A stretch of 64,000 nt of DNA from Macrostomum lignano. Taxonomy: Eukaryota. A program made the position numbers and the translations under genes. The notes beneath the pieces are model-generated. The model ran no database searches. It saw only the letters and a list, made by a program, of their open reading frames with translations, and was not told where the DNA came from. The stretch covers positions 1-64,000 of the forward strand of contig NIVC01000723.1 of NCBI GenBank assembly GCA_002269645.1, read 5' to 3'. Positions 10,341-25,376 of this stretch are shown piece after piece (within the stretch, counting starts at the first letter, position 1; every line of letters starts with the position of its first letter).

Positions 10341-12101
10341 CCAAGACACTTAGACAGACAGACAAACACCAAGACACTTAGACAGACAGACACTAATACA
10401 GACTGGCTTTCTAACAAGAAGACAGCCAAACAAATAAACAAACAGACAAACAGACTCACAGATAGGCTGACAGACAGACAGACAAACAAAGAAACACGGA
10501 CAGAAAGACACTAAAACAAAACACAAAGCAGAGAAGCAGAAAGAAAAGCAGACACAAAGTAAGCTACCCTGTCATGCACAGACACTCAGCATCGCTAAAC
10601 TGCAGCCATGCACCATATATAGCTATTCTATAAGTTCCCCTCACCCCACAACCCTTTCCATTCGCCCAGTACTCGTGGAGCCTGGGACTCGCCGTGTGCA
10701 TCTGCTGGTCCATGCTGGTGTGCCTGAGCCGCATCTACCTCGGCATGCACAGCTTTCTGGTGAGTTGGCCTTGTACAGTGATGGATATAATTTTGTTGTC
10801 TAAAAAGACAAATTGACAAAGCTTTCTAGCTTGTAAATAATTTACCCAAGCATAATCTCACCCGACCGAAGAATCTCACCTTTTTTAAATCTCACCTGAA
10901 AATCTCACCCTTAACCTGCATAATCTCACCTTATCTACGAGTATCATATTATTACGCGAGAATATCACCCTATCTATCAAAATCTCATCTGAGAATCTCA
11001 CCGTTACCCAACATAACCTCACCCTATCCATTATAATCTAGCTGGATAATCTCACCCTATCTATATTCTTCCCCGAGAAGCTCACCATATTTATCATAAT
11101 CTCACATGAGAATTCCACCCTATCTATTATAGTCTCATCTGACAGTCTCGCGCTATCCATTATAATCTTGCTCGATAATCTCACCCTATCTATTGTAATT
11201 TCTCATGAGAAACTCGCCCTATGTATTGTAGTCTCACGCTATCTATCAAAATATTAGCTGAGAATCTCACCCTATTTTTTAGAATCTCACCTGATAATCC
11301 CATCCTTACCCAACATAATCTCACCCTATCCATCATAATCTCACCTGAGAATCTCACCCTTACCCAACATAATCTCACCTGAGAATCTCATCCTTACCCA
11401 AGATAATCTCACCTGAGAATCTCACCCTTACCCAACATAATCTCACCTGAGAACCTCATTCTTACCCAAGATAATCTCACCTGAGAATCTCACCCTATCC
11501 AGCACTGTCTCACCTCGCAGGACGTGATCGCTGGCGCCCTCCTAGGTGTCATATTTCTAGTGGTTCTGTACCCCTACCTGGACCGGCTGGACCGCCTGGT
11601 GCTGACCAACCCCAACACTGGCTGGGCCCTGCCCTCGCTCCTGATCCTGCTGTGCCTGGCCTACCCGTCAATGCAGAGATGGAACACGGCTAGGGGGATT
11701 CTACCACCATCCTTGCCGGTCTGTGCGGAATATACGTCGGTGCCTGGCTAGCCTACCAGCACAATATGTACGACCGGCCTAAGCTGCCGCCGCCTTATCA
11801 GGTGAAATTTCCGCCAGACTTGGAGTTCTTCGGCACTTCAGCCGTGCGGATGGCCCTGGGCGGCACCCTGCTCATGGCTATTCGCGCTGTCTCCAAGTTC
11901 GCCTTTTACCGGGGTCTCTGCCGGCTGTACGGGTTGGACTTTAGCGACGCCAAAAATGCCCAGCTGTTGAAAGTTGAACTGCCTTACAAGTTTGCCACCT
12001 ACACTCTGGTATCGTTCAGCGTCACCTACGTATCGCCGCTGCTGTTCCGCGGAATCGGCATTCACAGGATTGTCGAGTTTACCGATCTGGATCCGGATTA
12101 G
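9235..12101 (+). CDS. SGPP1: sphingosine-1-phosphate phosphatase (SGPP1/2-like, PAP2 family), ~454 aa after correcting one frameshift
   Basis: Exons 9235-9927, 10670-10759 and 11521-12101, all GT-AG and phase 0. PAP2 motifs: KEIMQIPRP (C1), GFPSTH (C2), SRIYLGMHSFL|D (C3). N-terminal LHSPDLVASFQAACGV is typical of SGPP. One G missing in the G run at 11693-11697 breaks the expected ARGDSTTILAG. The symbol denotes family, not verified orthology. Confidence 0.9.
9995..10510. repeat. (GACA)n microsatellite in SGPP intron 1
   Basis: Direct reading. Confidence 0.9.
10850..11500. repeat. AATCTCACC-based degenerate minisatellite in SGPP intron 2
   Basis: Recurring ATAATCTCACCTGAGAATCTCACCC units. 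Confidence 0.85.
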
Positions 12102-15608: not shown

Positions 15609-16910
15609 TGAAGTACAGTTCTCGTTGTTGGTGGTCTCTTATTTTGTCTCGGGTGGCCTAGCCGTAGGTCTTGGAATCCCACCGCTGCCACCAATGAAGT
15701 ACAGTTCTCGTTGTTGGTGGTCTCTTATTTTGTCTCGGGTGGCCTAGCCGTAGGTCTTGGAATCCCACCGCTGCCACCAGTGAAGTACAGGTGTCTTGCC
15801 TGTGGTTGTCTAGAGGCCTTCAATAGGAACGCTGCCCCGGTGAAGTACAGTTGCTTGAGCTCCTCTGGGAAGTCTCCGGGTTGATCTAGCGTTGGTAGTG
15901 CTGCCACCAGCTTCGCAGAGTCGCAGCCTTCGGTGAGGTGCTGAGCTCGTAGAAGCAAATAACTAAGACGAGAGAAAGAGACTCGCACTTCGTGCAGATT
16001 TAGCAGTTCTCGCGCAGAGGTGCCCACCGTCAGCAGTCCCTGCCGGGCTGGTGCGGGGTGAGAGCGAAAGTGCTAGCTTCGGGCGATCCGAGCTGGCCTG
16101 CTAATTGATAGCAGGAACAATCAGAGCCAGAGGCAGTCACGCGCAAAGTCGGGAGTCTTGGAGTTCAACTTAAGCGTCAACTTGGCACACAACTTAGAGT
16201 TCGCTAGAAACGAAACGGAAGGAACGCTAGGAAAGCTTGGAAAGCTAGGAACGCGAGGAACGGTAGGAACGCTGAAAACGCAGAAACGAGAGGCTGAAAC
16301 GGAAGGGCCGGTTAACGGAAGGAAAGAAAGGCTTGTCTGAGCCAAGCCAGGAGAGGGGCTGCATTTATAGGGAGGATCGATTGCACCATAGCACGAAAGG
16401 CCCCCGCTGAGAGTCATAAGTGACTCTGTTGCTAATTTTAGCAACAAACAAGCGGGCCCTGCCTCAGAGGAGGCAAGGGGGGGTCCGGGCGCACGTGATC
16501 TCCCCATAAACACGAGCCCAGCGTACAATGATGAAATCATTGCACTTTGGACTAAAGAAGGAAGAGGGCCTTGTCATGTGACTGACTCACATGACAAGGG
16601 GAAAAGGCCCACAAGTGAAGGCACTCGTGACCGTGGGACCGGAAAACAGGAAGGCACTCCAAATTTGGAGATGCCTGACAGAGAACGAAACAGAGGCAGG
16701 CCAGACCAAGCTGTCTGGGCACTGCAAAAAGGGAAAGCGAGACAAAAGGGGCAAACGAGGACAAACAGACAGACAGACAAACGGGCAGAGGACAGGCCAG
16801 GGACAGGCGGGAGGGACAGGCAACTGCCCAGCGGCAGACAGAAACCTGGGGAGAAGGCGAGGGCAACAGCTGACTAGTGCGGCGCCTAACTAAACTAGCG
16901 ACTCACTACA
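15609..16910 (-). repeat. 3' LTR
   Basis: Direct repeat of 24075-25376 with TG...CA termini on the element strand. Confidence 0.95.
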
Positions 16911-16921
16911 CTCTCCCCGTT
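16911..16921 (-). promoter_or_regulatory. polypurine tract
   Basis: AACGGGGAGAG on the - strand immediately before the TGTAGT start of the 3' LTR. Confidence 0.85.
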
Positions 16922-17311
16922 CAAATAAAGAGGCGGAGTGAAGCGGCGCGCGCTTTATTTAAAACAAAGTAAACGTGAATTTACTGACAAAAGAAAACAC
17001 ACAAAATTTCAAATGCGCTCGTGAAATTGCGCGACTGGCCAGGTCGTAAAGATAGTGGCCTGATACCGCGGGGCGCCAACCCGCTAATAGCCTGCGCCTA
17101 ACTATTCCTCGTGCTCCAGCCCGCAAAATTAGTGCTCGAATTTGGTGTGGGGGCGCCGGCCCACCCTAGAAATGGCGCCTAAATATTGCGCGGGCGATAC
17201 CTGAATACACAAGCCAACCGGCTTAAAATTCCTGCATAAGGGCGCTTAACTAGCGCGGCAAACGGGGCAACTTCATTGTCAACAGGGCGTACATCAGCGT
17301 ACGGCCGCCAA

Positions 17312-18373
17312 TCAGTCAAAATAGCACAGACGCGGAGTCATCAAGAGCATCGGCAGGTCTTCTTCCCCGCCGCCCATGAATCGGGCAACGCGGACGGCCG
17401 CCAGGTGGAGAGCGTACGGCCGGTTCGGCCGCTCCAGGTCGGGGCCGGCCAGGCCGACCGCCTCCGCGAATAACCGGCTCCTCTCCTCGGCCGTGGTTTG
17501 ACGGAGCTCCGCCCAGATCGGGCCACCGAGGTCAACGATTTCTCCGCCTTGCCGAGCCGCTCTGACGAGTACAGCGCTTATCAGGTTGGCGCCGGCAGCG
17601 ATGACGGTAGCTCGGTATTCCGGTATTGGCGACTCCGTTTGAGTGCCGGTATCGAGCGTTTCCGCCGGACGTTCGGGCGATGGTGGCGGGGCCCTGGGCA
17701 GGGTGCGGCGCAGCGACGCGGCCAGGTCGGTCCAAACAGCTGAGGAGCATGCGGCCGCTCCCTGAGTGTCATCGGTCCAAGACATCGGAGACGGGGCCGC
17801 GTCGGGATGCCTGGCGTCGTCGAGATCCCCTCCGCGTTCATCTGTTCCGCCGGGCCTGCCGTGGTGCTCCGACCCGACTCGCTCACGGGCCGCCGGCCGA
17901 GCCCCGTCGATGTCTGGAAGGGAATTGCGGACTTGGAGGCGGATGTCCGCCAAGCCCCGCATCACCTGCTGTTCCAGCTGCACGTAAGCCAAAGCGGCCG
18001 CGATCCGGTCGACCATGAGTGTCCGCGCAGTCGCGTCTGGCGATGGCGAGTCGCGCGTGAGGTCGATGACTTCGGGCGAGTGTCGTTGACCCGAGCGGGG
18101 TGTTGAGCTGCATGGCTCTCCAGAACGGGCGAAGGGCTTCGCCTGGGTGCCGATGTTCGGAGTGGCCTCCCATTCCGCCTCTGGGGCTCGGGGACGGCGT
18201 GCGACGGTGAGGGCGCCGATCAACCTGGCGCGTCGGCCTCGCCGAGCCGTTGCCTTCAGCCCTGAGTCTCCGGTTAATTGTCTCCAGCGGGCGCCGCGGG
18301 ATCCCCATGGTCTCTGGCGAGACCGGGGTACCAGGTCGGCGCCGGCTACGGCTAGGCCGCCCTTGCTCCGCAT
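17312..18373 (-). CDS. accessory ORF of the LTR element (353 aa as annotated; true start uncertain), unknown function
   Basis: Open frame overlapping the pol 3' end and stopping ~400 bp before the PPT. Contains EVIDLT, EIVDL, DTGTQTE, a predicted coiled-coil-like segment and a helical-looking C-terminus. No signal peptide or TM, so not env. Confidence 0.6.
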   Translation of the reverse strand: MRSKGGLAVAGADLVPRSRQRPWGSRGARWRQLTGDSGLKATARRGRRARLIGALTVARRPRAPEAEWEATPNIGTQAKPFARSGEPCSSTPRSGQRHSPEVIDLTRDSPSPDATARTLMVDRIAAALAYVQLEQQVMRGLADIRLQVRNSLPDIDGARPAARERVGSEHHGRPGGTDERGGDLDDARHPDAAPSPMSWTDDTQGAAACSSAVWTDLAASLRRTLPRAPPPSPERPAETLDTGTQTESPIPEYRATVIAAGANLISAVLVRAARQGGEIVDLGGPIWAELRQTTAEERSRLFAEAVGLAGPDLERPNRPYALHLAAVRVARFMGGGEEDLPMLLMTPRLCYFD

Positions 18374-21300
18374 CGGACGAGGAGCTTGAGCTCACGTGGA
18401 GCGGACGCTTGTGCATTTCTGCGCTGCAAGGTTTTAATTTGTGCACACGCATGCGGGCGGTGCGACTAACGTACGTTTTGGCCCTAGGATCGCTAATCAG
18501 AAGCCTCTCGGGCGGCCTCCGATCCCTAACTGGCCTACCTACCACTACTGGTATGGGAGACGCTTCCACCGGAGTGGTGCAAGAAGGTGGCGCAGGAGAC
18601 TGCGCCGCAGAAAAAGGTTCGGGAAGGGGGGACGCGTGGGCAGGTGAAAAAGAAGCAGCAGGTGCAGACGCATTCAAACCAGGCACACCATCATGGCGAT
18701 CACCATACGGCAGTGGCTCACGCCGAAATGCACTTGCCTGGTTCGCTGGTGTCGTGACCGGTCCACCTCCTGGCTGCACATCCGGGATCGCCAACGGCCG
18801 GAAGCGCCACCGGAAGGCCGGCCATGCGTCATCATCATCATCGTCCTCGTCGGGATCGTCCTCCGGGATCGGTGTCAGGGTCGCGGGTCCTGCACCGTCC
18901 GGGACATCAGTCGACCTGCGGCGTTTCTTGGCCTGGTCGACTTCTGGATCCGAAGTCAGCTGGTAGTCGGCATCAGGGACGAGTAGCAGATTCCGGCGAT
19001 GGACTACTAGCTCGTCGCGCCTGGCCCGCGGGTTTGGCACTCTACGGCGAATCTTGTAGACGACCTCGCCCTTGGGTTCGACTACCTCGTACAGCGCTTT
19101 GCGAGGTCGATGGAACTTCGCCGCTTCATCCGGTTCGAGCATGATAAAGTTCTCGGTGACACGGGCTAATCCGGGCCTCCAGAATCGTTCACGTAGCCGC
19201 TTCAACGTCTTCGTCTGGCCGAGGTGTCCACACAGTGGCGAACTGTGGAGCTCCTGGAGCACCTGGGCATCTAGAGCTTCGGGCAGGACAACCTTCGGGG
19301 GCTGCTGGCCATCAGTCAGATCGATCATCAGCAGGCCGTTGTCCTCTCGCAGATTATCATAATATCCGAGCAGATTCCGCTGCTCCTTCGTCAGTCGCAA
19401 CCGGGCGTCGAACTCAGGCTTCAGGGCTTTGTTCTCGACCAAGTTGAGCACGTAGCTGATTGCTCGGTCGGCGCGCTGCGCGTCGACAAACTGTTGCCGC
19501 GTCATCGGCATCCTCAGAAAATCAGTGAGCACGGCGCGGCATGGCTGAGGGTTCCGGATTTCCTCAGTCTCCGCTTCTGTGGCTCGCAGTTGATCACGCG
19601 ACTCCGTCTTGTCGGCGTCAGGATTAGGTCGCTCCGAGGGACTTTGTCTCACAACGTCGGCGTACGATCGCTGATCTCGTTTCGAAGTTCTCATCGTCGC
19701 TCTCTTGACAGGAATTTCCGCAGCTGGAGCAGTGCACTTGCCTCCACTGCACAGCCCAGGCGACTCTTGGCTGTAGGGCGAGACGCAACACGTGAAGCAC
19801 GCCTCGTCGCAGGCAGCCGTAGCCGTCGGCTCGATCATCGTCGTCATTGGGTGAGTCTTCTCCAGCACTGGGCGGTGTCGCAAAGGGGGACTCGACTTTC
19901 CGCACAGGCGATGAGCAGCTGTCTGTCGGCTCGGGGGACAGAGCGTTGACCTTGCAGCCGTCGCGAGAGTCTGGCCTCTGTCAACACGGCGAGAACTCTC
20001 AGCGCAAAACTCCGGGGAGTTGAACTTACATTGCTGGTCTGGATTCGCGTTGTGGGCTGTCATCAGAAGGGCTGCTTGTTCAGTGGCCTCTGAGTCGTGG
20101 TCCATGGGCGTCTCCAGATTCCGAGACCCGCAGTCTTGGACATCATCAAGGAGGTCTACGTCAGCAGTGGCCTCCGAGGTTTTGTCCGGGCGAATCTCCA
20201 AGTAACGGCAGTCGGCGTGGGCGTCGTTGCGGAGGGCTGAGGTGTCAGTGGCCTCCGGGTTGGTGTCCAAACCGGTCTCCAGGCGTTGACTGCAGCGATG
20301 GTCGTCGTGCTGAAGGGCTGCTGGCGCAGTGGCCTCCAGGTCTTCGGCCAGGGCAGTTTCGGCCTCCTTGTTGCGAGTGTGGACCTTCTTCGTGCGGGCT
20401 GCTCTCGCAGTGGCCTCACGTGTGGTGTCCAATTCCGGCTCCAGGCTGGTGTCATCACCGGGTCGGGCTGCAGAACCGGGGTGCTCCAGCAGTCGGCCAT
20501 GTTCGAAGTCAACCGGTGGTGTCTCCGGGCGTCTTGACAGGGCGTCAGCGTTGGCGTGGTCCTTGCCTTTGCGATGGTGAAGCTGGAAGCGGAACTCGCT
20601 TAATCGCTCAATCCAACGGCCCAAGATGCCTGTGACCTGCGTCTGGTTCAGCAGCCACAGCAAGGCCCGATGGTCAGAACGAACTTCAAACTTCTTGCCG
20701 ATTAAATAATGACGGAAATGTCGCATCGCGTCCACGATTGCAAGCAGCTCTTTCTTCGTGACCGTGTAGCGCTTCTCAGGATCACGAAGCTTCCGGCTAA
20801 AGAATGCAATTGGGCGCTCGACGCCGTCGGATTGCCGTTGTCCAAGACAAGCGCCTATGCGAATGTCTGAGGCATCCGTGTCTAGGACAAACTTCACATT
20901 AGGATCTGAGTTAAACTCAGGCAGAGCGAGAACTTCAGTCGAACACAACTTCTTCTTCAACGTGTCGAACGCTACCTGGTGCTCATCAGTCCAATGCTGC
21001 CGCAGGCTGCCGATGTCCTTTCGAGTCAGGGCATGTAGCGGCGCAGCAAATCCAGCGTAGCCGTTGACAAACTTGTGGTAGTAATTGGCGAGGCCTAGGA
21101 ATTGTCTCAGTTGAGTAACGGACTGTGGCACGGGCCAATCACGGATCTGCGCAATCTTGTCCTCACAGGTCTTCAGGCCGTCGGGAGTCACGACGTGGCC
21201 TAGATAATGCAGCTCCTTGAGGAACAAATGGCACTTCTTCGGCTTGACCTTGAGGTTGGCTGCGATAATCCGCTGGAGTACAGTCCGCAGGTTGTCCAGC

Positions 21301-22920
21301 TGCTCCTCGAAGGTCACAGAGTGCACCACGATGTCATCCATGTAGCCAAGCGCAGTCTTTGGCGTCAGGCCGTCCAGGAGCTTATTGATGCAACGCTGAA
21401 AGCTGCCTGGACTATCGTGGAGACCCATCGGTAGAACATTGAAACAGAATTGTCCGCGGTCAATCACAGAGAACGCCGTCAGGTGCTGATCGCAGTCGCG
21501 CAGCGGGATCTGCCAGAATCCTTGAGCGAGATCCAAGCTAGAGTACCACTGGGCACCACGCAGCTTCGCGAAGGTCTCCTGAATGTGCGGCAGCGGGTAC
21601 GGGTGGTACACACACTTGTCGTTGAGAGCTCTGAAGTCATGCACCAGCCTGATGTTTCCGTCCTTCTTGGGCACTATCAGCATTGGCGAGTTGTAGCTAG
21701 AATAAGCTGGGCGAATGATGTGCTTCGCCAGCATCTCGTCTAGCAGGGCGTCTAGCTTGTCCTTCAGATGAGGCGGGATCCTGCGCGGTGGTAGCGCAAC
21801 TGGTGTCCGATCCTTCAGGATGATCTCGTGGGTCACCAGGTGTGTCAGGCCAGCGTCTAGCAGATGCTTCGAGAAGGCTGCTTGACACTCAACTAGTAGA
21901 TCTCGCACTCTCTGTCGTTGATCTTCGGACAGCTCGCTGTTGATCTCGACTTCCTCTAGCCAAGCTGTGCTGGACTCTTCAGGGCTCCTTGGCAAATGTC
22001 GCACTTCAGGTTCCGGCGTCTCTTCCAGGTACATCAGGTCGGCAGTTCTAAGTGGTGTCGCAACCCAACGCGGATGCCCGACTGCAGGAACACCTCACAG
22101 TCAGCAGTGTTGACGACCTCGATGTAGCCTCGACCTTCAGGCATAGTCATCAGAGCTGGAGCTGCTTCCAGAGTGTTGCAGCTGGGGTGCAGTCTCGACT
22201 TCACCAGCTCGACGATTGATGGCGATCCTCGGTTCTCGGGTGGCCGACATCCAACTGGACGGCCAACAGCGCTGAGCTTCTCGGCGGCAGAGTGCACTTC
22301 TCGGAGGTGTACACCCGGCATGATTGAAGCTCACGGCGCGAATAGCGAACGGGAATGCACGCGCCATTGTTGAACTTTAACATTCCTTGCGCAAAGTCCA
22401 AGTTTTGGCAGTGTTCACGCATGAAATTAATACCAAGCAAATTTTCACAATCGGTGACCGTGACCAGGAATTCGGTGTCCGCGACGACATCACCAAACTC
22501 CACCGGGATGATCACCTTACACGCAAGGGGTAGCTGCGTACCGTCGTACATGGTCACGCAATCCGGGATAGCATGCGATATGATACAACGAGGCATCCGA
22601 CGTCTAACATTGGCCCAGGTCGACGCTCCAAGAAAGTTTTTCCGACTGCCGCTGTCTAGTAGGAAAGGGACTTCTCGGCCCGCCAATCGGCCGGTGACGT
22701 ACGGATCAGCCTCACGCGCATGGATTTTTTGATCATCGGAGGTGTCCACGAAACCTCCGGGCTCAGCCTCACTTACTGATGAGCGACTGTCGGACTGGGC
22801 ATTGGCGCCTGCGCAGCCGACATCCTCTTCTTCTGGTGAGCGTTCGGAGTCTGCCAAGTAGCCGGGGCTTGGGCTCTGCGGAGGGCGTTGCCGTGGGCGC
22901 TCTCCGTCTCGCCGTTTCCC
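17883..22920 (-). CDS. pol: pol polyprotein (aspartic protease, RT, RNase H, partial integrase) with two single-base frameshifts
   Basis: Protease FLLDSGS (ORF 22201..22941), RT GYMDD, RNase H VLDTDAS, integrase HH zinc motif (LHSSPLCGHLG) and C-terminal module. Adding one base in the C/G runs at ~22238-22240 and ~22064-22066 fuses three ORFs into one frame. Confidence 0.92.
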
Positions 22921-23942
22921 TGGTTCTGGCGTAACGGGCACTGTGCATTGCGATGACCAGGCTGACCGCAGCCATAGCAGATCATGACTTTCGAAGGCGG
23001 ACTCGTCTTCTGCTGCTGGTCACGCTGCACCAGGTTGTCTAGCAGTCGCTGCTGTTTCTCTAGCAGATCAGTCAGAGCCAGGAGAGCTTGAGCGGTGGCG
23101 TCGGGCGTCGGGTCACCGTCGCGCTCCCCGTTCAGCATGCGAACCGGGGGTTGAGCAGAGCGCTGCGCCAGTTCCTTGGCGCCTTCCAGACGATGGAGTT
23201 CTCGAATAGCGGCCAGCAGATTGTTCGGGCGGACCCAATAGAGCCGCTCGCGCAGATCTGGTGTCGTCCTGATGCCAGCTAGGAACTGATCAGCCAGCTC
23301 CCGCTCTCGATCCTCAGGGTGCATTCGAGGGTACGCTCGCTCTCCCAAGGTGCGCAGGGCATCAGCGTACTCTTCTGCTGACTCATTCTTGCCTTGCTGA
23401 CGGCGCCTCAGCAGCTCTCGATATTCATCCGCGCCACCGTGGCGGGCGAATCTCTCGATCAGTCGCTGCCTGACCTCCTCGTAGCCAGCATAGCGTGGGA
23501 GGTGCATACTGAGCAGAGCCGGGTAAGCGGTTGCCAGATCTAGACTCGCAACGAGGTGCTGCTTCATCTCGATCGGGTCTTCGATACGCTCCATCTCGCA
23601 GCGCTGCTCGAACGCGGCGAGCCAGACGTGGATGTCCTGGCTGGGCGTGTACTTTACAATCTTAACAGATTTGCTTACCGGCCGCTCCATCTGCTGCTGC
23701 AGAGCTGCCATCATCGTTCTCACATCCTGGGGCCTGATGTTCTGGCCGAGGTCGTCCAAACCTGGCAGAAGCTCGTCTGGCGGGTCTTCGGACACTTCGC
23801 TTCTCGCACTTCGCCGCGGCATCTGCTGACCAAGGTCGTTGACCGCTGCTGCTGCGGCAGCCGATGCTGCTGCAGGTCTCGAACTGCTGATGTGCTGATC
23901 CAGCCGGCTGCTGCACCGGCTCTCTTCTCTCTCGTTAAACAT
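22773..23942 (-). CDS. gag: Gag (389 aa) with CCHC zinc knuckle
   Basis: CYGCGQPGHRNAQC (CX2CX4HX4C), capsid-like WLAAFE and LADQFLAGI segments. ATG lies ~110 nt after the PBS. Confidence 0.92.
   Translation of the reverse strand: MFNEREESRCSSRLDQHISSSRPAAASAAAAAAVNDLGQQMPRRSARSEVSEDPPDELLPGLDDLGQNIRPQDVRTMMAALQQQMERPVSKSVKIVKYTPSQDIHVWLAAFEQRCEMERIEDPIEMKQHLVASLDLATAYPALLSMHLPRYAGYEEVRQRLIERFARHGGADEYRELLRRRQQGKNESAEEYADALRTLGERAYPRMHPEDRERELADQFLAGIRTTPDLRERLYWVRPNNLLAAIRELHRLEGAKELAQRSAQPPVRMLNGERDGDPTPDATAQALLALTDLLEKQQRLLDNLVQRDQQQKTSPPSKVMICYGCGQPGHRNAQCPLRQNQGNGETESAHGNALRRAQAPATWQTPNAHQKKRMSAAQAPMPSPTVAHQ
22879..22920 (-). promoter_or_regulatory. -1 programmed ribosomal frameshift signal (G GGA AAC plus hairpin)
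   Basis: Heptamer at 22920-22914 in the gag frame (QGN). A -1 shift enters the protease frame (GKRRDGERP). After a 7-nt spacer comes the stem CGGAG-AGCG...CGC-C-CTCCG (22906-22879). Confidence 0.75.
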
Positions 23943-24051: not shown

Positions 24052-24073
24052 TCGAATCCCACCGCTGCCACCA
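24052..24073 (-). promoter_or_regulatory. primer binding site complementary to the tRNA-Leu 3' end
   Basis: TGGTGGCAGCGGTGGGATTCGA, 1 nt after the LTR CA end. It matches the conserved metazoan tRNA-Leu(AAG/TAG) end TCGAATCCCACCGCTGCCA-CCA. Confidence 0.9.
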
Positions 24074-24074
24074 G

Positions 24075-25376
24075 TGAAGTACAGTTCTCGTTGTTGGTGG
24101 TCTCTTATTTTGTCTCGGGTGGCCTAGCCGTAGGTCTTGGAATCCCACCGCTGCCACCAATGAAGTACAGTTCTCGTTGTTGGTGGTCTCTTATTTTGTC
24201 TCGGGTGGCCTAGCCGTAGGTCTTGGAATCCCACCGCTGCCACCAGTGAAGTACAGGTGTCTTGCCTGTGGTTGTCTAGAGGCCTTCAATAGGAACGCTG
24301 CCCCGGTGAAGTACAGTTGCTTGAGCTCCTCTGGGAAGTCTCCGGGTTGATCTAGCGTTGGTAGTGCTGCCACCAGCTTCGCAGAGTCGCAGCCTTCGGT
24401 GAGGTGCTGAGCTCGTAGAAGCAAATAACTAAGACGAGAGAAAGAGACTCGCACTTCGTGCAGATTTAGCAGTTCTCGCGCAGAGGTGCCCACCGTCAGC
24501 AGTCCCTGCCGGGCTGGTGCGGGGTGAGAGCGAAAGTGCTAGCTTCGGGCGATCCGAGCTGGCCTGCTAATTGATAGCAGGAACAATCAGAGCCAGAGGC
24601 AGTCACGCGCAAAGTCGGGAGTCTTGGAGTTCAACTTAAGCGTCAACTTGGCACACAACTTAGAGTTCGCTAGAAACGAAACGGAAGGAACGCTAGGAAA
24701 GCTTGGAAAGCTAGGAACGCGAGGAACGGTAGGAACGCTGAAAACGCAGAAACGAGAGGCTGAAACGGAAGGGCCGGTTAACGGAAGGAAAGAAAGGCTT
24801 GTCTGAGCCAAGCCAGGAGAGGGGCTGCATTTATAGGGAGGATCGATTGCACCATAGCACGAAAGGCCCCCGCTGAGAGTCATAAGTGACTCTGTTGCTA
24901 ATTTTAGCAACAAACAAGCGGGCCCTGCCTCAGAGGAGGCAAGGGGGGGTCCGGGCGCACGTGATCTCCCCATAAACACGAGCCCAGCGTACAATGATGA
25001 AATCATTGCACTTTGGACTAAAGAAGGAAGAGGGCCTTGTCATGTGACTGACTCACATGACAAGGGGAAAAGGCCCACAAGTGAAGGCACTCGTGACCGT
25101 GGGACCGGAAAACAGGAAGGCACTCCAAATTTGGAGATGCCTGACAGAGAACGAAACAGAGGCAGGCCAGACCAAGCTGTCTGGGCACTGCAAAAAGGGA
25201 AAGCGAGACAAAAGGGGCAAACGAGGACAAACAGACAGACAGACAAACGGGCAGAGGACAGGCCAGGGACAGGCGGGAGGGACAGGCAACTGCCCAGCGG
25301 CAGACAGAAACCTGGGGAGAAGGCGAGGGCAACAGCTGACTAGTGCGGCGCCTAACTAAACTAGCGACTCACTACA
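24075..25376 (-). repeat. 5' LTR
   Basis: Direct repeat of 15609-16910, followed by the PBS. Confidence 0.95.
24829..24835 (-). promoter_or_regulatory. TATA box in LTR U3 (copy at 16363-16369)
   Basis: TATAAAT on the element strand; position fits U3. Confidence 0.55.

What the first reader, a model, noticed from the sequence alone, without database searches (positions are those of the whole stretch)
17312..18373. Retrotransposon accessory ORF with SUMO-interacting and LC8/dynein-light-chain (TQT) motifs: possible anti-silencing factor
Seen: a ~350-aa ORF between integrase and PPT, with no env features. It carries EVIDLT (18073-18056), a second SIM-like EIVDL, DTGTQTE (17653-17633), a weaker IGTQA, a coiled-coil-like LAYVQLEQQVMRGLADIRLQV and an ordered-looking C-terminus. 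Known: VIDLT is the PIAS-type SIM and TQT is the canonical LC8/DYNLL anchor. In Drosophila, co-transcriptional piRNA silencing needs LC8 binding to Panoramix and SUMO-dependent SetDB1 recruitment. Inference: the ORF may mimic or sequester host silencing hubs, or use LC8/dynein-linked trafficking. Removing one C at ~18183-18186 would fuse the RS-rich pol tail to this frame (RTPSPSPEAEWE), so it may instead be an integrase C-terminal extension.
Basis: partly seen in the sequence, partly recalled or inferred. Interest (0 to 1): 0.7.

Follow-up and report, generated by a model that had tools for sequence, protein, structure and literature searches.

The report
Trans-spliced accessory gene inside retrotransposon pol
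A family of flatworm jumping genes ends its enzyme gene with a conserved extra module that also gets a message of its own, made by attaching the host's spliced-leader RNA; the module is predicted to dock on two host hub proteins (LC8 and SUMO) and likely helps the element's full-length RNA escape host processing, which is untested.

Summary
The 359-codon frame is not the real gene. The window copy of this Macrostomum lignano Ty3/Gypsy element is broken at two base runs where sister copies and all 6 read sets differ; in relatives the module is the end of the Pol frame. It is also a gene of its own: a conserved acceptor (18425-18424) precedes a conserved ATG (18416), and contigs of 2 of 6 runs carry the host spliced leader there. 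Related groups carry a homologous domain as a separate ORF after the pol stop. The 368-aa protein has an Arg-rich start, a SIM (10 of 13 copies), an LC8 motif (12 of 13; model score 0.79, control 0.06, textbook pair) and a folded helical end domain without a known match. IGTQA and the second SIM fail. The cassette is swapped between near-identical integrases (dS 0.02-0.05 against above 1). Function is inferred: most likely a CERV/Rev-like regulator of full-length RNA; anti-silencing and integrase-tail roles remain open. The scan had not noted this protein; it noted other third ORFs in this genome.

The parts
24075..25376 (-). 5' LTR (1302 bp; includes two extra 86-nt units with primer-site sequence at its end)
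   Evidence: identical to the 3' LTR; TG...CA ends and 4-bp target duplication
24056..24073 (-). primer binding site (tRNA-Leu type, recalled label)
22773..23942 (-). gag with one CCHC knuckle
18417..23019 (-). pol: protease, RT, RNase H, integrase zinc finger and GPF/Y-type domain; broken in this copy near 22064 and 22237; integrase core absent at 19141/19142
18861..18878 (-). LTPIPE followed by an acidic run: LxxIxE-type (PP2A-B56 docking) motif in the integrase linker, predicted only
18732..18741 (-). GC-type splice donor (exon ends at 18738)
   Evidence: kept in 15 of 15 unspliced copies; 4 genomic copies are joined exactly here; joint in run X5
18501..18536 (-). RPVRDRRPPERL: end-of-integrase motif; related integrases stop shortly after it
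18424..18429 (-). splice acceptor used for spliced-leader addition and for cis-splicing (exon starts at 18423)
17312..18416 (-). accessory gene, ATG to stop (368 aa in sister copies; broken twice in the window copy)
18090..18416 (-). Arg/Ser/Pro-rich N-terminal region
   Evidence: Arg 15-25% of the first 110 aa in 13 of 13 family copies
18056..18073 (-). EVIDLT, SUMO-interacting-type motif followed by D-S-P
   Evidence: 10 of 13 copies; binding not tested
17930..17992 (-). amphipathic helix
   Evidence: alignment A2
17913..17919 (-). second, downstream acceptor
   Evidence: genomic copy L014 and run X5
17675..17734 (-). conserved W-L-L helix plus P-APP-SP block, unexplained
17633..17653 (-). 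DTGTQTE, LC8-binding motif (predicted)
17315..17620 (-). folded helical end domain of about 100 aa, no family or fold match
16954..16959 (-). AATAAA 49 nt before the 3' LTR, candidate internal poly(A) signal
   Evidence: same place in 10 of 10 elements, none in their LTRs
16911..16922 (-). polypurine tract
15609..16910 (-). 3' LTR

Best explanation
The feature is the last part of the pol frame of a flatworm Ty3/Gypsy family that doubles as an accessory gene: the host spliced leader is joined to an acceptor 7 bases before a conserved ATG, so a free 368-aa protein is likely made, predicted to be dimerised by LC8 and to dock on SUMO, and it most likely acts as a nuclear CERV/Rev-like regulator that would let full-length element RNA escape splicing. 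Shown: architecture, leader junction, cis-splicing, motif conservation, cassette swapping (about 0.9). Predicted: translation from that ATG (0.8), LC8 binding (0.75), SUMO binding (0.6). Inferred: the RNA-regulator role (about 0.45). Logic: leader addition at this site severs the genomic RNA, and the same acceptor removes the tail from Pol when cis-spliced, so full-length RNA must evade active splice sites; an Arg-rich, dimerised protein made from the default processed RNA is the solution used by Cer1 and HIV. Unspliced RNA would also give an integrase with the tail attached.
For: Leader letters at 18424 in runs X1 (16 nt) and X5 (11 nt), two studies, matching the end of the published 35-nt leader; X10's contig ends at the same base; deep DNA-like run X16 shows none. 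No leader end in 192 fetched loci, nor element sequence after 30 of 79 genomic leader-end matches examined. Four annotated proteins start at or within 2 residues of this Met. CAG seven bases before the ATG in 33 of 33 distinct contexts. In related groups the ORF has its own ATG in four different relations to pol: 16 of 19 loci separate, 3 fused; the end domain is homologous in two separate-ORF groups (E 1.4e-5, 8e-4, 1e-3; best decoy 0.022). Active splice sites: at least three independent genomic copies lack an exact GC-AG intron from one donor; an annotated protein ends two residues after that donor. LC8 dimer plus peptide: score 0.79, best of 3 controls 0.06, runs agree in at least 94% of contacts, partner pLDDT at least 61; mark reached by 51 of 78 solved and 2 of 108 mismatched pairs (eukaryotes 39 of 65 and 2 of 126; peptides untested); a textbook pair that may pass from memory. 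Precedent: Cer1 spliced, SL1-bearing mRNA encodes CERV, needed for genomic RNA export (PMC3315495 passages; PMC10309623 abstract and sections 9, 15).
Against: Only assembled contigs, no raw reads; library types are guesses and X5 is guessed to be DNA; X4 and X19 show no leader. 49 of 79 genomic leader-end matches were not examined. The leader's own AUG opens a short frame out of register with the ORF, so translation needs leaky scanning or reinitiation. No conserved export-signal pattern, no likeness to CERV's described domains, no RNA-binding test. Arg richness is partly favoured by 64% GC DNA and is weak in two of the five groups; LC8 motifs are missing in some groups. Strong diversification of the cassette over a shared pol fits a host conflict better than binding of a shared RNA signal.
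Confidence: 0.45

Rival explanations
1. Same dual expression, but the free protein is an antagonist of host silencing: it docks on SUMO-marked chromatin as an LC8-bridged dimer and its variable end domain blocks a host repressor; cassette swapping is an arms race.
For: SIM and LC8 motif conserved; many old cassette types kept on near-identical pol and LTRs; LC8 dimerises Panoramix in Drosophila (PMC7861614 passages).
Against: No host target found; fold searches blank; Panoramix evidence is from flies; one LC8 site per chain cannot plausibly titrate a hub with 8 top-scoring loci; dN/dS below 1 in every pair tested, near saturation.
Confidence: 0.27
2. The main product is the long integrase: the tail tethers the integration complex to SUMO-marked chromatin or links it to LC8/dynein for transport, as integrase tails of Ty1, Ty5 and chromoviruses do (recalled).
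For: Tail in frame with integrase in all 11 divergent copies aligned and in Pol frames of 2139-2215 aa; fused in a second group.
Against: Separate ORF in 16 of 19 loci of related groups, including proven homologues; own acceptor, ATG and leader junction; no shared target in flanks of 13 insertions (1 tRNA in 26 flanks); LC8 is mostly a dimerising hub outside dynein (PMC6607443 passages).
Confidence: 0.18
3. The acceptor is a brake, not a promoter of an accessory gene: leader addition and cis-splicing cut full-length RNA to limit copying, and the free protein is a by-product or a dominant-negative piece.
For: Leader AUG out of frame; cis-spliced RNAs are packaged and reinserted; leader addition necessarily severs genomic RNA.
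Against: Conserved own ATG, purifying selection and stand-alone ORFs in sister groups.
Confidence: 0.07
4. Envelope or small fusogen remnant.
For: Position between pol and the polypurine tract, spliced expression.
Against: No signal-type N-terminus, no conserved membrane segment (best 19-residue hydropathy 0.75-1.68 in 13 family copies, inside the predicted bundle), no Pfam or viral fold match.
Confidence: 0.03

Closest known systems
CERV of C. elegans Cer1 (PMC10309623: abstract, sections 9 and 15; PMC3315495: passages)
   Same: Ty3/Gypsy element; non-envelope protein from a spliced RNA that can carry the host spliced leader; shares reading frame with a core gene; full-length RNA must skip active splice sites; predicted multimer; proline-directed phosphosites.
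   Different: CERV's leader site is at the 5' end and its mRNA is multi-exon, sharing Gag exons; here the leader is joined deep inside pol, operon-style, to one exon in frame with integrase. No sequence or described-domain likeness (no Cys loop, no G-like domain); function shown for CERV only.
Non-envelope ORF3s of bdelloid rotifer Juno/Vesta elements (PMC5408684: passages)
   Same: Extra ORF after pol in envelope position, modular gain and loss.
   Different: Those are captured enzymes or membrane proteins; the passages seen do not mention trans-splicing; no fusion to Pol or swapping of allelic cassettes described there.
sORF2 of Drosophila MDG1-group elements (10.1101/2025.03.14.642691: abstract and outline)
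   Same: Envelope-less Ty3/Gypsy with accessory ORFs.
   Different: sORF2 is a short membrane fusogen; this protein is 350-470 aa, mostly low-complexity, without a conserved membrane segment.
Integrase C-terminal targeting tails (Ty1, Ty5, chromoviruses; recalled, no call)
   Same: Long integrase extension with short host-binding motifs.
   Different: Separately expressed here, and unfused in most related groups; no target-site preference seen.
Panoramix-LC8/Cut-up (PMC7861614: passages)
   Same: TQT-anchored LC8 site in a disordered region.
   Different: Host silencing factor with two sites; only the generic motif is shared.

Membership tests
Ty3/Gypsy LTR retrotransposon | LTR pair, primer site, polypurine tract, target duplication | tested here: met
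Ty3/Gypsy LTR retrotransposon | gag, then protease-RT-RNase H-integrase order with GPF/Y-type domain | tested here: met
   integrase core missing in the window copy, present in sisters
Gmr1/Osvaldo cluster named for M. lignano in PMC12801592 | RT tree placement with reference elements | tested here: inconclusive
   nearest outside hits 28-42% identical, some with SCAN domains; no reference set; supplements searched gave no sequence match
Spliced-leader trans-spliced gene | leader 3' end joined at an AG acceptor, junction absent from DNA | tested here: met
   2 of 6 runs, leader sequence from PMC8629364; DNA check partial
LC8 client | anchored 8-residue motif in a disordered region: polar -4, no pre-anchor proline, D/E/P at +2 | tested here: met
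   canonical groove in the model
LC8 client | measured binding | not testable with these tools
   needs ITC or co-IP
SUMO-interacting protein | hydrophobic core with flanking acidic or phospho residues (pattern recalled) | tested here: met
   xIDLT plus D-S-P/D-T-P in 10 of 13 copies
SUMO-interacting protein | binding to SUMO | not tested
   the one complex job went to LC8; host SUMO loci exist
CERV family | Gag-shared exons and Cys-rich multimer domain | tested here: not met
   single exon at the end of pol; 0-7 scattered Cys, none invariant
Rev/CERV-like exporter (works like) | made from processed RNA of an element with active splice sites; basic region | tested here: met
Rev/CERV-like exporter (works like) | conserved nuclear export signal | tested here: inconclusive
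   pattern hits in 8 of 13 family copies, at different places
Rev/CERV-like exporter (works like) | needed for export of unspliced RNA | not testable with these tools
   needs knock-down and RNA imaging
Envelope / sORF2-type fusogen | conserved membrane-spanning segment | tested here: not met
   hydrophobic helices pack in the model
Any solved fold | structural match of the end domain | tested here: inconclusive
   best Z 5.9 (rmsd 6.5, 94 aligned), level with unrelated helical bundles

The most novel reading that the evidence does not exclude
A retrotransposon clade has built a host-style operon: it uses spliced-leader trans-splicing inside pol, with its own poly(A) signal before the LTR, to express a new family of LC8- and SUMO-docking regulators; the leader-bearing RNAs are co-packaged and act as donors for template switching, so the accessory cassette is shuffled like an allele pool between near-identical polymerases in a conflict with host silencing or RNA surveillance.
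Probability: 0.3. Interest if true: 0.85.

Novelty: new variant of a known kind. Interest (0 to 1): 0.72.

Why it matters
It gives a direct RNA-level example of an LTR element using the host's trans-splicing machinery at an internal site to turn the end of pol into a second gene, one sequence serving as integrase tail and as free protein. The protein family has no described relative, keeps two host-hub motifs while its sequence turns over, and is exchanged as a cassette, which marks a host-element interface. M. lignano has RNAi and transgenesis (PMC5730564, search listing), so how envelope-less elements protect full-length RNA or counter silencing in stem cells becomes testable. It also suggests that other unexplained third-ORF acceptors in trans-splicing animals should be checked for leader addition rather than for a donor in the LTR.

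Tried and rejected
Pfam: no match for the ORF or its relatives above cut-off. Solved-structure sequence search: best E 0.13. Fold searches: no Foldseek match at E 0.001 in PDB or viral sets; VIA best Z 5.9 and, for the basal group's domain (model pLDDT 66.5), 6.9; this shows neither a new fold nor a different one. Protein atlas gave no result. Profile search of 1.84 billion proteins: 4 hits, 3 M. lignano and one repeat protein judged spurious. Search for longer homologues with a wide alignment found none but also missed the known ones, so it is weak. None of 32 integrase homologues returned carries the domain or a strict LC8 motif. Homology of the basal group's downstream ORF is unproven: profile probability 0.1, no better than decoys; only position, acceptor and helix pattern agree. 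L190 alone did not beat decoys with the first profile (E 0.023). No RNA holder is on record; run types are guesses. Idea that U3 travels with the cassette: rejected, LTRs are mostly 87-100% identical per 100 bases within groups. tRNA-gene targeting: rejected. Heat-shock elements: none by a simple pattern. The window's 762-nt integrase loss as a spliced intron: undecided, donor-like start but no AG end. Literature searches found no description of this ORF or of internal leader addition in a flatworm LTR element; PMC12801592 (part 1 of 6, passages, supplements searched for three motifs) has no passage on ORFs or splicing; PMC12582326 (passages) only notes leader remnants next to mobile elements; PMC13524379 had no hit for the terms. 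An earlier M. lignano LTR classification paper (recalled) and bioRxiv supplements were not seen.

Full report
Setting. The finding lies in a Ty3/Gypsy LTR retrotransposon on the minus strand, 25376-15609, with identical LTRs, a primer site, a polypurine tract and a 4-bp target duplication. Pfam finds a gag knuckle, protease, RT, RNase H and integrase end domains, and nothing in the reported ORF. The only real homologues of its end domain among 1.84 billion proteins are three Macrostomum lignano records that match frames in this genome, which names the host.

Observation check. The motifs are at the stated places, but the frame is an artefact at its 5' end. A DNA search gave 43 matches (40 of 119 candidates scored), 13 of them near-identical sisters. 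Of the 12 sisters that cover the region, 12 differ from the window at about 18189-18192 and 9 at about 18089-18092. Contigs of all 6 runs laid differ from the window at both places, and the 4 runs laid over the whole element also differ at three other single-base sites. Scattered one-base losses occur in most copies, so assembly error is the likely cause; reads anchored in the flanks were not available. In 3 of 12 sisters one frame runs from the integrase zinc finger to the stop at 17312 and in 7 of 12 from the ATG at 18416; Pol frames of 2139-2215 codons end with the module in three divergent copies. IGTQA lies between the two breaks and is not part of the protein.

A conserved module. A protein search found 87 matches in the genome, down to 28% identity; 40 regions were fetched. 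Of 13 copies open from the Met to the stop (350-470 aa, 25-44% identical to the window type), 12 hold a strict LC8-type motif (0.54 expected from shuffles; none in about 6,900 upstream Pol residues of 7 frames) and 10 hold xIDLT (0.03 expected; a look-alike also occurs in the integrase N-terminal part of 5 of those 7 frames). The patterns were written after seeing the data and the copies are related, but the LC8 motif sits at different places in different subgroups, which points to repeated selection. It fits the published rules (PMC6607443, passages), and a model with the host's own LC8 dimer puts it in the canonical groove: 0.79 against 0.06 for the best control, a textbook pair that may pass from memory. 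The last ~100 residues fold as a helical domain (mean pLDDT 84) with no family or fold match. The second SIM is a non-conserved loop in that domain. dN/dS in the end domain is 0.05-0.50 within groups where dS is measurable, up to 0.66 between groups.

A gene of its own. Annotated proteins begin at, or within two residues of, a Met kept in every subfamily. Seven bases upstream lies CAG after a pyrimidine-leaning stretch in 33 of 33 distinct contexts (contexts were picked by the protein motif, which does not force these codons). On laying runs, contigs of X1 and X5 carry loose ends at 18424 that match the last 17 and 12 bases of the published M. lignano spliced leader; X10's contig stops at the same base; X4, X19 and the deep DNA-like run X16 show none. 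The junction was not found in DNA: 0 of 192 fetched loci hold the leader end, and none of 30 examined (of 79) genomic leader-end matches is followed by the element. Limits: contigs only, run types guessed, X5 guessed as DNA. The leader's AUG opens a short out-of-register frame, so use of the ATG at 18416 is inferred. An AATAAA stands 49-51 bases before the 3' LTR in 10 of 10 elements and none in their LTRs, a candidate end for this RNA.

Cis-splicing. A GC donor at 18738/18737 is kept in 15 of 15 unspliced copies. Four genomic copies, probably three events, lack an exact intron from it to the same acceptor or to one at 17913; two are complete LTR-bounded insertions, so spliced RNA was copied back. 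Run X5 holds the second joint and an annotated protein ends two residues after the donor. Splicing to 18423 shifts the frame and would give integrase without the tail.

Relatives. An integrase tree joins 25 M. lignano rows (100/100) in five groups. In 19 of 20 further loci an ORF starts next to the end of pol: 16 separate (three frame relations) and 3 fused; by eye 18 of 19 have a CAG 7-30 bases before the ATG, untested in RNA. The end domain is detected above shuffled decoys in the second fused group and in two separate-ORF groups, not in the basal one. Fusion is thus labile while acceptor and ATG are constant, which makes the free protein the likely primary product.

Cassette swapping. In the same pairs of copies dS is 0.02-0.05 in the integrase core and 1.1 or more in the tail (for example L005/L023, L063/L068, L061/L074). 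Nucleotide identity falls from 0.89-1.00 to 0.50-0.73 at the Met in 5 of 5 pairs and recovers in the LTR. Selection cannot raise synonymous change that much, so recombination exchanges a unit of ORF plus 3' UTR. Its ends match the predicted leader-bearing RNA; template switching onto that RNA is one explanation, homology boundaries alone another.

Mechanism. Leader addition severs the genomic RNA and cis-splicing removes part of pol, so full-length RNA has to escape active sites. Cer1 solves this with CERV, made from a spliced RNA that can carry SL1 (PMC3315495 passages; PMC10309623 sections). An Arg-rich start, a dimerising LC8 site and a SIM fit a nuclear RNA regulator of that kind (0.45). 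Against: no conserved export signal, weak Arg content in two groups, and diversification that fits a host conflict. Anti-silencing (0.27) and an integrase-tail role (0.18) stay open.

Verdict. Not a CERV family member; it may work like one. Searches found no description. New variant of a known kind; interest 0.72.

Noticed in passing
window 19141/19142: This copy lacks 762 bases of the integrase catalytic core, in frame; the gap starts at a perfect GT donor motif kept in relatives but does not end in AG. No other examined copy has it; LTRs are identical, so it is a young copy that would depend on others.
   Followed up: partly
window 18878-18861: LxxIxE-type motif plus acidic run in the integrase linker, kept in three groups; HTLV-1 integrase binds PP2A-B56 (PMC7542444, PMC7305164, search listing only). 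A possible convergence, untested; similar motifs occur in some accessory proteins.
   Followed up: partly
window 15609-15780 and 24075-24246: Both LTRs end with two extra 86-nt units that each contain the primer-site sequence; sister LTRs are about 1,130 bp and lack them.
   Followed up: partly
L173:211-1080, L177:2794-3648, L181:556-1284: Basal sister group (integrase 59% identical) has a separate 240-280 aa acidic ORF after pol with an acceptor, a basic NLS-like patch, SIM-like VVDL/IIDL and a Cys-bearing helical domain; homology unproven.
   Followed up: partly
L138 and L139 (G000:C1069, C2766): Short non-autonomous copies that keep only LTRs, the integrase end and the spliced accessory region; candidates for cassette-only derivatives.
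   Followed up: partly
L195-L205: Several genomic leader-end matches share a different 5' start and the same next 12 bases, suggesting a repeat family that carries a leader remnant.
   Followed up: no
window 22773-23019: gag and pol overlap in the -1 relation in sister copies, suggesting a ribosomal frameshift; not examined.
   Followed up: no
window 11694-12101 (+): Host exon resembling the end of a lipid phosphate phosphatase (recalled likeness), about 3.5 kb from the insertion.
   Followed up: no
G000: 110 matches to the dynein light chain family, 8 of them near-identical canonical LC8: a large expansion in the host.
   Followed up: no
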